DNA of 64,000 nt from contig CP147778.1 of assembly GCA_037305845.1 (NCBI GenBank), positions 1,376,001 to 1,440,000 of the forward strand. The letters run 5' to 3'. This stretch comes from Candidatus Freyarchaeum deiterrae (lineage in GTDB: Archaea > Asgardarchaeota > Jordiarchaeia > Jordiarchaeales > Jordiarchaeaceae). The translations under genes were made by a program, and so were the position numbers. The notes under the pieces were generated by a model that did not search any database, was not told the origin of the DNA, and saw only the letters and a list, made by a program, of their open reading frames with translations. Position 1 is the first letter of the stretch, and each line of letters starts with the position of its first letter. Shown here in pieces: positions 5,093 through 51,497 of this stretch.

Positions 5093-5111
5093 ACTTCATT
5101 TCTCACTCACT

Positions 5112-8100
5112 TTATGTGTTCTCTCTGCCTTTGCTGAAAAGCCTCTTGAATGCGTCTCTCAGGCGTGCGCCTTGGTTCTTTAGGATGATCAGCATTACGC
5201 CAGGCATTTGAACCAGCATCCGCCTGTCCTGGTATCCTATGTAGATGCCTCTGGCCACCACGAAGATTGTGCCTATGGCCATTATGCCTAGTGCTAATAG
5301 TGCCAGTGGGTTAAATATTAGAGATATGTGTGGGACTGGTATTCCGCTCAGGGATGCGCTGTTCATTTCGAGGATTGTTGATGATGAAATCGAGGGAGTA
5401 CTGCTTGTGTAAAGTGTGCCCGATAGGCCGACTACACCGTTAATCACGACTCCGGAGGGTGTTACGCTCATGGAGCCTATGATGTTGGTGCCTCCGTTGA
5501 TTATGGTCGTACCGGACATTACGGTGTTTCCGGTGATGGTCATTACGCCGTTGATTGTTCCCAGGCCGCCCATGCTCATGATGCCGTCGGTTACCATTAA
5601 GCCGGTCATACTCATGGGCATCGCTATCTTGAAGTTGCCGTTCATGGTCACCATTCCAGCGTTTGTTACTGTTCCGGACACGTCAATCTTGTCGCTGGTG
5701 ATGCTGGTTTCGCTGTGGATTGTGGTTCCAGTTGTACTCATGACTATTGTACCGTTTACCGTTACCGCTCCGTTGGTCAGGGTCATGCTTCCGACGGTTT
5801 GCATGTAGCCGCTGGATACCGCTATGGTTCCGGTTCCGCTCATTGAGCCGCCGTTGATGTTCAGGTTCGTGTTGGATATGGTAACCGGTCCGTTAATGGT
5901 GCTGCTTCCCATCGTGAAGAATGCGCCCTTTATTGTGGTGAGGCCGGTGATCGTGGTGGTTCCCTGGGTAGTTATCTGTTCGCCGGTTACGGTGATGGTA
6001 TTGCCCATGATGAACGAGCCGGTGGAGTTCATAACCATGGTGATTGTGCCCGGTAGGTTTATCTCACCGCTGGTTACGGTCATGGATCCATCGGTTTCCA
6101 TTGTGCTGATGTTGCTTATGAGGGGGTTGATTGGGTTGATGGTTATGGTTAGGTAGCCTGTGGTTTGGCCGTTGTTTACATCCATGTTGCCCTGAACGGT
6201 TATCGAGGAGTTGCCCTGAAGGTAGTTGTATCCCGAGAGTCCGATAGTATCACTTTTTATTTTGGCAGTGCCGGTAAAGTTGATGTTTCCGTTGACCGCG
6301 GTTGAGACCGTGGTTGAGCCGCCCATTATGAATGAGCCTGAAGAGTTCATAACCATGTGGCCGCCCGTGATGTTTATCGCACCATTGGCTATGTTCATGG
6401 TTCCCGTGGTATTCATAACACCGTTAGGCAGGTTGAGCGTGGCTACAATCAGGTTTCCAGTCATATAGTTGAGCCCATTGATTCCGATGTCGCCGGTTAT
6501 TGAGGCGTTGCCGTTGAAGTCAACGTTTCCAGTGACACTGATAGGGTAGCCCGTGATAAATGAATCTGTGTTGTTCATATCCATGGTACCGTTTGAGATA
6601 CTTATCGCACCACCGGTTATGTTCATGTTTCCCGTGGTGTCCATCACACCGTTCGTCAGACTGAACAGTGAAGATGTAATGCTAATGTTCCCCTGCATGT
6701 TGTTGTGTCCCGAGAGTCCAATAGTATCACTTTTTATTGTAGCTATGCCGTTGAAGTTGATGTTTCCGGTGACCGCTATATCGCTGCCTATGATAAACGA
6801 GCCTGTGGAGTTCATAACCATGTGGCCGACCGAGATGCTTATATTACCACCGAGTATGTTCATAATTCCGTTGGTGTTCATAGTACCGATGGGCAGGCTG
6901 AGCGTATCTACGGTAATACTATTATTTCCCTGCATGTAGTTGAGCCCATTGATTCCGATTCCGCCGGTTATTGAGGCGCTGCCTTTGAAGTCAACGTTTC
7001 CAGTGACACTGATAGGGTAGCCCGTGATAAATGAACCTGATGAATTCATAACCATGTGTCCAGTTTGAACGTTTATTAAACCGTTGGCTATGTTCATGTT
7101 TCCCGTGGTGTCCATCACACCATTCGTCAGGGTGAGCAGTGGAGATAAAATGCTAATGCTGATGTTTCCCTGCATATTGTTGTGTCCCGAGATTCCGATG
7201 TTGTCGCCGGTTATTGAGGCGTTGCCGTTGAAGTCAACGTTTCCGGTGATATTGATAGTGTTGCCTGTTATGTATGAGTCGGTGTTATCCATGGTCATGT
7301 TTCCGTTGGGGATGCTTATCGCACCACCGGTTATATTCATGTTTCCCGTGGTGTCCATCACACCATTAGTCAGACTGAACAGTGGGGATATAAGCGGCGG
7401 GGATATAATGTTGATGTTTCCCTTCATGTTGTTGTGTCCGGTGATTTCTATGTCGCCTTTGATGGAGATGTTTCCTGTTTGGATCATGGTGCCTGTGGCG
7501 GTTAGTGTGCCGTTAACTATCTTGGTTATGTTGTTAACGGTGGTTCCGGTGACAGTTAGGGAGCCGTTTGTCATGGTGGTGTTTCCCTGTCCGTTAACTA
7601 CCTGTTGCTGGGTTGTTACGTTCATTACCGCTTTGGGGTACTGTGGGCTGGATGTTACACTGAAGCCCGCGTTGGATGAAGCGTTTTGTAACTGGAAGAA
7701 CATGGTGTCATTGGATGACATCTGGACATAGCTGTCATACATGAGGACCACACCCGGGTACAATGCGAACGAGGGACCCCAAGCCTGAAATATGGTGCCG
7801 TTTGACCACGACAGGGAGCTCATGGGGGTTATCGGAGTAATGAATGCGCTTAGGAGCAACCCGTTGGTGTTATTGTTGAATTGCCCGTCGGCTTGGAGTT
7901 GGCTTATGTTGGCTATGCCGTTGTACGGTGGTCCTGCTATAGGAATGGTATATGACATACTTCCAAGACCTGGGGGGTATGCTTCGAACAAGATTATCTG
8001 GTTTGTGATGAAGATGTATGTGGGAATGCCGACAGTACCTCCTATCGTGGCTGTGCCGTAGATTAAGAGTGTTCCGCTGGTTACTTTTATGGCGTCCAGA

Positions 8101-50078: not shown

Positions 50079-50291
50079 TGGTGGGGACGGAGAGATTTCC
50101 AAGGAGAAACAGAGTTTCCCATTTTGAACTCCCGACTAACAGGTTTCTTCAGCTCACTGCTCCAGAAGTTCATCATCTTCTGGTCAGCAAACCTGATTAT
50201 TATCATTGCCTCTGGAGCCTGCCGTGCTTCTTAGCCGAGTTCAGAACAACCAAACTATTGTCCCGAACAACTCTGACTACACTACGTCCCC
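50079..50291 (-). tRNA. trnW: tRNA-Trp(CCA) with three introns (18/19, 37/38, 59/60)
   Basis: Removing 50231..50272, 50145..50211 and 50096..50122 gives GGGGACG TA GTGT AGTCAGGAA GCAC G GCAGG CT CCA GA CCTGT TAGTC GGGAG TTCAAAT CTCTC CGTCCCC A CCA, a full cloverleaf. Each intron sits in a BHB-like motif. Confidence 0.9.
50145..50211 (-). ncRNA. Box C/D guide RNA encoded by the tRNA-Trp anticodon intron
   Basis: Box C ATGATAA, D' CTGA, C' ATGATGA, D GTGA. Guides CAGGTTT and TCTGGAGC are complementary to the pre-tRNA; the N+5 rule lands on C39 and C34. Confidence 0.85.
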
Positions 50292-50553
50292 ACCGAAATG
50301 GGTTAGGCAGCAACACACCAAACATGGTGCGTGTAAAAATGATAAGTGCAAGAATTACATAAAGTTTTTGTTTCCCTCCTCTTTTGCCTCTCAAACCCCG
50401 CACACCTAATTTCAGAACACAAAACCATTACAATAAACCATAAAACATCAAACCAGTAAGCAATAAAAAGCCACAAAAATCAAAAAAGTCCAAAAATAAA
50501 CAAACACACAAAACCGCAAAAAAAACACGAAATTAGGAATGCGGCGTCGCTGT

Positions 50554-50675
50554 TCCGTGTTCGGTAAGAGAACGGGTGATCCCCATGCACTATGACCGGC
50601 ACCGAGGCGCCAGCATTCGGTTTTTCCGCTCCCTCGCGGAGAGCAGTACTCACAGAATCGTACATGAGCTTAACT
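50554..50675 (-). rRNA. rrf: 5S rRNA, circularly permuted gene (3' half 50675-50606 precedes 5' half 50603-50554), enclosed by a BHB motif
   Basis: The 5' half GGTGCCGGTCATAGTGCATGGGGATCACCCGTTCTCTTACCGAACACGGA lies downstream of the 3' half AGTTAAGCTCATGTACGATTC...GCTCTCCGCGAGGGAGC...GAATGCTGGCGCC. Helices I-V all pair. Confidence 0.9.
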
Positions 50676-50713
50676 TTCACGCAGCGACGTCTATCTCTCA
50701 CATAACAAACGGA

Positions 50714-50721
50714 AATATAAA
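50714..50721 (-). promoter_or_regulatory. TATA box for the permuted 5S precursor
   Basis: TTTATATT on the minus strand, preceded by an A-rich BRE-like GAAA, about 25-30 nt upstream of the BHB outer stem. Confidence 0.55.
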
Positions 50722-50997
50722 CATTTCTAAGCAATAACAAACAATATACACACCCTCAAACTACAGGCATAAACACAAAAACATCATCATAAAAACACGT
50801 TAAATTACAAAGAAAAAAAACAAGTATGGCCGGTTGAAAACAATAATGATATTCTTATGAAAGTAGTAGCCTTGCAGATACAAATACGACTTAATCCACA
50901 CATCCTCCGCAAAAATTAACCAACTAGAGACAGCGTTCAACAAATGAACAGAAAAATTTATATTTTAAAGTTAATTCTAATCAAACACACAGAATGC

Positions 50998-51132
50998 GCC
51001 CAAGTGGTGTAGCCCGGTCTATCATCGCGGCCTGTCACGTCGTGGACACAAAAACGATGGTTTAGTGGCGGGAACCCGAGGCCAAAAAACAAAGGTTTTA
51101 TGGCGGGAATTCAAATCTCGGCTTGGGCGCCA
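50998..51132 (+). tRNA. trnD: tRNA-Asp(GUC) with two non-canonical introns (45/46, 53/54)
   Basis: Removing 51046..51073 and 51081..51109 gives GCCCAAG TG GTGT AGCCCGGTCTA TCAT C GCGGC CT GTC AC GTCGT GGAC CCGAG TTCAAAT CTCGG CTTGGGC G CCA. TATA-like TTTATATT upstream at ~50957. Confidence 0.9.
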
Positions 51133-51331: not shown

Positions 51332-51497
51332 GGGCCGTTAGCTCAGGGGCGCAACGAAACCGTTGAACCGAGAAATTAGGTAGAGCGTCTGACTTCGGTG
51401 GACTTCCCCCCGAAGGGTGAAGCTTTTAACCAGGCGGTCGCGGGAAGCTTCTGAAACTTATCGGGGCTCGCGAATTCAAATCCTGCACGGCCCGCCA
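51332..51497 (+). tRNA. trnK: tRNA-Lys(UUU) with three non-canonical introns (15/16, 30/31, 53/54)
   Basis: Removing 51347..51375, 51392..51421 and 51445..51474 gives GGGCCGT TA GCTC AGTTAGGTA GAGC G TCTGG CT TTT AA CCAGG CGGTC GCGGG TTCAAAT CCTGC ACGGCCC G CCA. Confidence 0.9.

What the first reader, a model, noticed from the sequence alone, without database searches (positions are those of the whole stretch)
50545..50689. Circularly permuted 5S rRNA gene that a BHB splicing reaction would restore as a circle
Seen: on the minus strand the 3' half of 5S (AGTTAAGCTCATGTAC...GCTGGCGCC, 50675-50606) comes before the 5' half (GGTGCCGGTCATAG...CCGAACACGGA, 50603-50554). The normal termini (helix I, GGTGCCGGT/GCTGGCGCC) are joined by only 2 nt, forming a C(CUCG)G-type loop. 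The new ends sit in a splicing motif: an 8-bp outer stem CGTCGCTG/CAGCGACG, a 4-bp central helix CGTG/CACG, and 3-nt bulges AAA and GAA. The inner helix is weak, so the motif is relaxed (BHL-like). Cutting after the second nt of each bulge (the EndA rule) and ligating gives a 122-nt circle with junction CCGAACACGGA|AGTTAAG. That is the conserved 5S helix III segment with its AA bulge. Helix II (GTGCATGGG/CTCATGTAC) and the GCGA-capped helix IV are intact, and there is a TATA box upstream and a T-tract downstream. Established: BHB-dependent permutation is known for tRNAs (Thermofilum pendens, red algae) and for Thermoproteus SRP RNA. I know of no described permuted 5S rRNA gene. Inference: this organism makes 5S rRNA with the tRNA splicing endonuclease and RtcB, possibly as a permanently circular rRNA, and standard annotators would report 5S as missing or fragmentary.
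Basis: partly seen in the sequence, partly recalled or inferred. Interest (0 to 1): 0.96.

Follow-up and report, generated by a model that had tools for sequence, protein, structure and literature searches.

The report
Back-to-front 5S rRNA gene, Asgard archaeon
This soil Asgard archaeon (Freyarchaeia) encodes its only detectable 5S ribosomal RNA with the back half first, between tRNA-splicing-type cut signals, so a normal 5S sequence can arise only by cutting and rejoining, most likely as a 122-base ring; most Asgard lineages share the layout, which explains why their 5S genes seemed to be missing.

Summary
Confirmed at the DNA level. Window 50554-50675 (minus) is a circularly permuted 5S rRNA gene, the only 5S found in this complete Freyarchaeia genome. 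[quoted passage not shown] A permuted-5S model hits 89 of 151 Asgard genomes (20 of 27 families); six families keep the normal order. The flanking stem differs in sequence but stays paired (75/75 pairs in 15 representatives). Two cut registers at this site, a second site in loop C and a third in one metagenome contig all rebuild the normal junction under the BHB rule. The splicing endonuclease, RtcB and uL18 are encoded. No RNA evidence was obtained here: ligation (about 0.85) and a permanent ring in the ribosome (about 0.55) are inferred. Correction: permuted 5S genes are described in brown-algal mitochondria (linear, different break point). I found no paper on a BHB-flanked archaeal one. The scan has noted the same arrangement before in at least 63 genomes.

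The parts
50714..50721 (-). TATA-like box (TTTATATT) with purine-rich BRE-like stretch upstream (50728-50722)
   Evidence: sequence; similar ATTTATATT in the four congeners; function inferred
50682..50689 (-). 5' arm of BHB outer stem (leader)
   Evidence: 8 WC pairs with 50552-50545; pairing kept with different sequences across families
50678..50681 (-). BHB central helix, leader strand CGTG
   Evidence: pairs with CACG 50559-50556; CAGG/CCTG, CCGA/TCGG, CTGG/TCAG in other families
50675..50677 (-). 5' bulge AAA; predicted cut between 50676 and 50675
   Evidence: BHB rule; product junction scores best
50607..50675 (-). 3' half of 5S rRNA: end of helix III, helix II 3' strand, helix V, loop E, helix IV with GCGA loop, helix I 3' strand
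   Evidence: half-profile hit 41.5 bits, E 2.8e-10; covariation
50603..50606 (-). CUCG tetraloop joining the normal 3' and 5' ends of 5S
   Evidence: fold; UNCG in 38 of 81 permuted loci
50554..50602 (-). 5' half of 5S rRNA: helix I 5' strand, loop A, helix II 5' strand, loop B, helix III, loop C
   Evidence: half-profile hit 27.6 bits, E 8e-6; covariation
50553..50559 (-). BHB central helix strand CACG and 3' bulge GAA; predicted cut between 50554 and 50553
50545..50552 (-). 3' arm of BHB outer stem (trailer)
50518..50525 (-). T8 tract, probable archaeal terminator
   Evidence: sequence; T-rich trailers in relatives; function inferred

Best explanation
This is the organism's functional 5S rRNA gene. 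It is transcribed from its own promoter as a short precursor (inferred). Leader and trailer pair into a relaxed BHB motif (shown by covariation). The two-subunit tRNA splicing endonuclease cuts after the second base of each bulge, and RtcB joins the released 122-nt piece into a ring exactly as it does an excised tRNA intron (inferred from established archaeal splicing chemistry). The join rebuilds helix III with its AA bulge (ACCCGU / ACGG-AA-GU). The normal ends are permanently capped by a tetraloop, so the ribosome most likely carries a covalently closed 5S. My odds: cut and ligated about 0.85; ring kept in the ribosome, given ligation, about 0.65.
For: Only 5S found in a complete, long-read-validated genome; uL18 present. 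All five helices covary over 28 permuted genes: 90.5% of cells paired, 30 of 35 pairs with changes on both sides, 37-45% when slid. The helix III pairs that span the two gene ends are 100% paired with compensatory U-A/C-G/A-U changes. Outer stem 75/75 and central helix 57/60 paired in 15 representatives of 14 families, against 21-44/75 and 11-20/60 when slid. In a 13x13 grid of cut positions the best BHB rebuilds the normal junction in 61 of 67 loci (alone at the top in 50). Two registers (GGA|AGU and GGAA|GU) and a separate site in loop C (G054, G083, G131, G149, G068, L083) and one in loop B (L082) each obey the rule and each give the normal sequence. EndA catalytic and structural subunits and RtcB are encoded. 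The same rule correctly splices the neighbouring multi-intron tRNA-Trp, -Asp and -Lys. Precedent: permuted SRP RNA of Thermoproteus is matured to a ring this way (PMC4731332). Joined native ends are tolerated in E. coli ribosomes (PMC7283268). The helix I cap is a UNCG tetraloop in 38 of 81 loci and has no processing motif.
Against: No RNA read across the junction was seen here (the runs laid did not cover the gene). The inner helix of the BHB in this genome starts with a G-A mismatch, so the motif is relaxed. In family f14 the best BHB gives a product one base longer than the normal junction. Loci are related, so the counts are not independent. Permuted tRNAs and the Pyrococcus 23S rRNA are reopened after circularisation, so a ring need not be final. 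This genome's own cap is CUCG, not UNCG.
Confidence: 0.56

Rival explanations
1. Same cut and ligation, but the ring is only an intermediate: a nuclease opens the helix I cap and the ribosome carries an ordinary linear 5S, as with permuted tRNAs.
For: Permuted tRNAs of Thermofilum and red algae are circularised and reopened, with linkers as short as 1-7 nt (PMC3218864; PMC4267664). Six Asgard families have normal linear 5S, so free ends work in these ribosomes. Helix I is extended by several pairs in some families (f8, f17, f19), which could be trimmed.
Against: tRNAs must have free ends and have RNase P and tRNase Z to make them; 5S has no such need (PMC7283268). The cap is a stable tetraloop in most loci (55 of 81 four-base loops, 38 UNCG) and shows no shared cleavage signal.
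Confidence: 0.27
2. The BHB is cut (or the flanks trimmed) but the ends are not joined: the mature 5S is a linear permuted molecule nicked in the helix III bulge and held by base pairing, like brown-algal mitochondrial 5S.
For: Linear permuted 5S exists (PMC4267664). Helix III covariation needs only pairing, not a covalent link. No junction reads seen here.
Against: Different registers and sites all preserve the exact length and sequence of the joined product, which matters only if ends are joined. EndA ends are RtcB substrates and excised archaeal introns are circularised (PMC4731332). Nested introns at the same site in two Atabeyarchaeia genomes can be removed only after ligation. The mitochondrial model RF02547 does not match.
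Confidence: 0.13
3. Misassembly or a dead rearranged copy, with a normal 5S elsewhere.
For: The genome is metagenome-assembled; Rfam sees only a fragment.
Against: Complete genome validated by long reads (PMC11291895); no other 5S; same layout in 89 genomes; structure-preserving changes throughout; none of the 61 genomes searched with both queries held both forms.
Confidence: 0.01

Closest known systems
Permuted, circular SRP RNA of Thermoproteus tenax and T. uzoniensis (Plagens et al. 2015, PMC4731332)
   Same: Single essential RNA gene missed by annotation; ends moved into a conserved functional element; leader and trailer form a BHB; own TATA promoter; host with very many tRNA introns and a heterotetrameric endonuclease; mature RNA is a ring.
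   Different: Here the RNA is ribosomal; the layout spans 20 families of a phylum rather than one genus; several cut registers and sites exist; circularity is not shown. The SRP RNA of this genome is in normal order.
Circularly permuted tRNA genes (Thermofilum pendens, Cyanidioschyzon merolae; PMC3218864)
   Same: 3' half before 5' half; BHB at the new ends; short linker between native ends; can carry extra introns.
   Different: The tRNA ring must be reopened at the acceptor stem; the 5S linker is a stable tetraloop with no known need to open.
Permuted mitochondrial 5S rRNA of brown algae (Valach et al. 2014, PMC4267664; Rfam RF02547)
   Same: 5S with helix I closed by a hairpin and ends moved elsewhere.
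   Different: Break at the alpha/gamma junction, product stays linear and permuted, no BHB described; RF02547 gives no hit here.
BHB-dependent circular pre-16S/23S rRNA and circular or permuted 23S rRNA of archaea (PMC12918454, PMC7758197)
   Same: EndA/RtcB act on rRNA precursors; circular rRNA can sit in ribosomes.
   Different: Those genes are in normal order and the BHB lies outside the mature sequence; that paper states 5S is not processed this way. Circular 5S species seen in Halobacterium and Sulfolobus come from normal genes, have variable ends and are read as decay products (PMC12558985).

Membership tests
5S rRNA (RF00001) | Match to RF00001 above the gathering score in gene order | tested here: not met
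   17.3 bits against 38; expected for a permuted gene
5S rRNA (RF00001) | Full-length match to normal 5S after re-permutation | tested here: met
   74.3 bits, E 1.6e-20, against an HMM from 14 normal-order Asgard 5S that pass RF00001; RF00001 itself could not be run on a constructed sequence
5S rRNA (RF00001) | Five-helix structure with loop E and AA bulge in helix III, supported by covariation | tested here: met
5S rRNA (RF00001) | Present in the 50S subunit, bound by uL18/uL5 | not testable with these tools
   uL18 gene present; binding not tested
BHB-matured permuted RNA genes (Thermoproteus SRP RNA type) | 3' part encoded before 5' part, no normal copy in the genome | tested here: met
BHB-matured permuted RNA genes (Thermoproteus SRP RNA type) | Leader and trailer form a BHB whose cuts restore the conserved element | tested here: met
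BHB-matured permuted RNA genes (Thermoproteus SRP RNA type) | Splicing endonuclease and RtcB encoded | tested here: met
BHB-matured permuted RNA genes (Thermoproteus SRP RNA type) | Junction reads and circular mature RNA | tested here: inconclusive
   four RNA runs laid, none covered the gene
BHB-matured permuted RNA genes (Thermoproteus SRP RNA type) | Cleavage by the host endonuclease in vitro | not testable with these tools
   bench experiment
Mitochondrial permuted 5S (RF02547) | Match to the model; ends at the alpha/gamma junction | tested here: not met
   no hit at E up to 10; ends here lie in helix III

The most novel reading that the evidence does not exclude
Most Asgard archaea, probably since their common ancestor, make 5S rRNA as an excised, intron-like ring through the tRNA splicing machinery, and their ribosomes carry a covalently closed 5S; normal-order genes in a few lineages are reversions, and the break point has moved and gained nested introns in others.
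Probability: 0.4. Interest if true: 0.93.

Novelty: new variant of a known kind. Interest (0 to 1): 0.85.

Why it matters
It fills a stated gap: for two complete Heimdallarchaeum genomes the authors wrote that 5S genes could not be predicted (PMC8813620), and genomes of those two sizes each hold two permuted copies. It would make a universal ribosomal RNA depend on tRNA splicing, and would be the first rRNA gene whose own mature sequence is rebuilt by BHB ligation, as far as my searches reach. Because the layout is found across the archaea closest to eukaryotes, it bears on how the eukaryotic 5S gene, with normal order and free ends, arose. It also affects genome-quality scoring, which asks for a 5S gene. 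It is directly testable with small-RNA sequencing.

Tried and rejected
RNA: one search for runs and one laying of four wetland metatranscriptome runs; only rpoB pieces were covered, the 5S gene not at all. These are filtered contigs, so this says nothing for or against expression or ligation. A scan of JGI metagenome contigs for a joined form running through both the junction and the helix I cap gave 11 hits: nine ordinary 5S genes with a chance downstream motif and two genes permuted at other sites; no RNA-derived ring. Rfam at gathering threshold finds nothing in the window; ARAGORN finds no tRNA in the window because of multiple introns. The 86-aa ORF 50480-50740 over the gene was rejected as a by-product of the RNA gene. 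The sigma-70 scan does not apply to archaeal promoters. Two first-pass scripts mis-anchored some loci and were replaced. The RpoB tree leaves the deep forks open, so single origin with reversions is not shown. Genomes outside Asgardarchaeota were not surveyed. Literature searches for permuted or circular archaeal 5S found none, but the library lacks most subscription papers.

Full report
Source. The window lies in a single-contig genome of 3,576,204 bases. Relatives of a neighbouring protein are labelled Freyarchaeota and Jordarchaeia, and the size equals that of the complete, manually curated and long-read-validated Freyarchaeia genome from California wetland soil (PMC11291895). That paper reports introns in 92-95% of the tRNA genes of its three genomes and does not mention 5S rRNA.

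Observation. On the minus strand the order is: TATA-like box (50721-50714), outer arm CGTCGCTG, CGTG, AAA, the 3' half of 5S, CUCG, the 5' half of 5S ending CACG GA, then A and the outer arm CAGCGACG, then a T8 tract. Rfam finds nothing at its cut-off in the window. RF00001 over the whole genome gives one 17.3-bit fragment, at this locus. An HMM built only from 14 normal-order Asgard 5S genes finds two pieces in swapped order and nothing else in the genome; the same alignment cut and swapped at the helix III bulge gives one full hit, 66.8 bits, E 4e-18. The sequence joined at the BHB-predicted cuts scores 74.3 bits; every junction that differs in length or sequence scores less. A 4-bp central helix with an 8-bp outer stem at this spacing is found at 1.7e-5 of sampled genome positions, 4e-7 with Watson-Crick pairs only.

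Distribution. A DNA search of 60 relatives hit 23, mostly full length in permuted order. RF00001 passes its cut-off in 14 of the 61 genomes, all in families f7, f10, f12 and f16, and gives only split weak hits in the others; no genome showed both forms. A covariance model of the permuted gene hits 89 of 151 genomes of the phylum at 43 bits or more, in 20 of 27 families; six families have normal order and one small genome gave nothing (about 85 of the loci inspected). By the labels of identical or clustered RpoB proteins, permuted families include Jordarchaeales, Odinarchaeum, Baldrarchaeia, Njordarchaeales and Heimdallarchaeota; normal-order ones include Hermodarchaeia and a Promethearchaeota family. 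Genomes of 3.08 and 3.33 Mb, the sizes of the two complete Heimdallarchaeum genomes for which 5S 'could not be predicted' (PMC8813620), carry two permuted copies each.

The RNA is under selection as a 5S. Over 28 permuted genes, 90.5% of cells of the standard 5S structure pair, 30 of 35 pairs show changes on both sides, and sliding by 1-3 columns drops pairing to 37-45% (helix II is undercounted because of alignment shifts). The two helix III pairs that link the first bases of the gene to its 5' half are always paired, with U-A, C-G and A-U variants, so the two ends come together in the mature RNA.

The BHB is under selection. In 15 representatives of 14 families the first five outer pairs are 75/75 paired with many different sequences, and the central helix 57/60; slid controls give about a third. 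Scoring all cut positions within 6 bases of each end, the best BHB rebuilds the normal junction in 61 of 67 loci that have one, uniquely in 50 (loci are related, so this is not a probability). The strongest argument is that the rule holds in different settings. Register A (CGTG AAA / CACG GAA; this genome) cuts GGA|AGU. Register B (for example CCGA AAG / TCGG AAA) cuts one base later, GGAA|GU, and gives the same product. Several f9 genomes and one metagenome contig are permuted in loop C, and another contig in loop B, each with a BHB that restores the normal sequence. Two Atabeyarchaeia-sized genomes and most of family f5 have a nested intron at the junction. The exception is family f14, where the best BHB leaves one extra base.

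Machinery. The genome encodes two endonuclease paralogues. One has the Tyr, His and Lys of the catalytic site and matches a solved catalytic subunit at E 8e-43, including the loop that, from my own knowledge, marks the broad-specificity crenarchaeal enzyme. The other lacks the His, so the enzyme is probably the heterotetrameric, relaxed type (inference). RtcB and uL18 are present. The same cut rule turns the flanking multi-intron tRNA-Trp, -Asp and -Lys genes into normal tRNAs, an internal control that relaxed motifs are used here.

Ring or reopened. Four metatranscriptome runs did not cover the gene and a contig scan found no joined form; both are uninformative. For a lasting ring: the cap on helix I is a four-base loop in 55 of 81 parsed loci, UNCG in 38, with no shared processing signal; E. 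coli ribosomes work with a 5S whose native ends are joined by four bases (PMC7283268); the Thermoproteus SRP RNA stays circular (PMC4731332). For reopening: permuted tRNAs are reopened (PMC3218864; PMC4267664). I put ligation at about 0.85 and a lasting ring at about 0.55 overall.

Comparison with what is known. It works like the permuted SRP RNA of Thermoproteus and meets every sequence-level feature of that kind; the RNA-level features are untested. Circular 16S/23S precursors come from normal-order genes, and the 2026 survey of them says 5S is not processed that way (PMC12918454). Six searches found no report of a permuted archaeal 5S gene.

Earlier notes of this scan. The same arrangement was noted in at least 63 genomes; three notes claim joined RNA forms in other Asgard lineages. 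I could not check those claims and do not count them as evidence. One note was later priced at 93/100 for the observation and 35/100 for the closed ring being the ribosome's 5S.

Verdict. A real, conserved, BHB-flanked permuted 5S rRNA gene, typical of most Asgard lineages searched and apparently unpublished. New variant of a known kind. Interest 0.85.

Noticed in passing
window 50079-50291 (-), 50998-51132 (+), 51335-51497 (+): tRNA-Trp (3 introns), tRNA-Asp (2 introns) and tRNA-Lys(UUU) (3 introns) flank the 5S gene; removing BHB-rule introns gives normal tRNAs in ARAGORN. The middle Trp intron resembles C/D box sR3 (37.4 bits, below cut-off).
   Followed up: yes
L021 and L022 (G021, G031; 2.8-Mb complete genomes, Atabeyarchaeia by size): The leader holds a duplicated half-site: outer arm, CGTG, bulge, 22-23-nt hairpin, CGTG, bulge. 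This predicts two steps: circularisation, then removal of an intron from the ring at the same site.
   Followed up: partly
L068, L070, L071, L127, L128, L137-L145 (family f5, Heimdallarchaeum group): A conserved hairpin with loop like UGCGU sits between two CAG half-sites in the leader; probably the same nested-intron arrangement. G034 and G076 carry two permuted copies each.
   Followed up: partly
L067, L090, L091, L097, L100 (family f9) and JGI contig L083: 5S permuted at a second site, on the 5' side of loop C (CCGG AA|C ... CCGG TC|A), again a BHB that rebuilds the normal sequence.
   Followed up: partly
L082 (JGI contig, organism unknown) about 5100-5300 (-): 5S permuted at a third site, in loop B, with CCGA/TCGG central helix and three-base bulges.
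   Followed up: partly
L089, L093, L095, L096, L098 (f9) and L117 (f21): Permuted 5S genes with an additional BHB-type intron of about 30 nt in loop C.
   Followed up: partly
L111, L113, L114 (family f14): Best BHB gives a product one base longer than the normal junction (three-base bulge in helix III); G024 also has a partial duplicate of the gene start downstream.
   Followed up: no
families f7, f10, f12 (Hermodarchaeia by protein labels), f16, f23 (Promethearchaeota by labels), f26: Normal-order 5S genes; f23 is sister to the permuted family f9 in the RpoB tree, which suggests at least one reversion or independent gain.
   Followed up: partly
genome C1 1689630-1689990 (-), L179: SRP RNA is in normal order but about 45 nt longer than the model (103.6 bits); possible intron or insertion.
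   Followed up: no
genome C1 about 1805400-1806500 and about 1839400: 16S and 23S motifs lie about 33 kb apart and about 380 kb from the 5S gene: unlinked rRNA genes.
   Followed up: no
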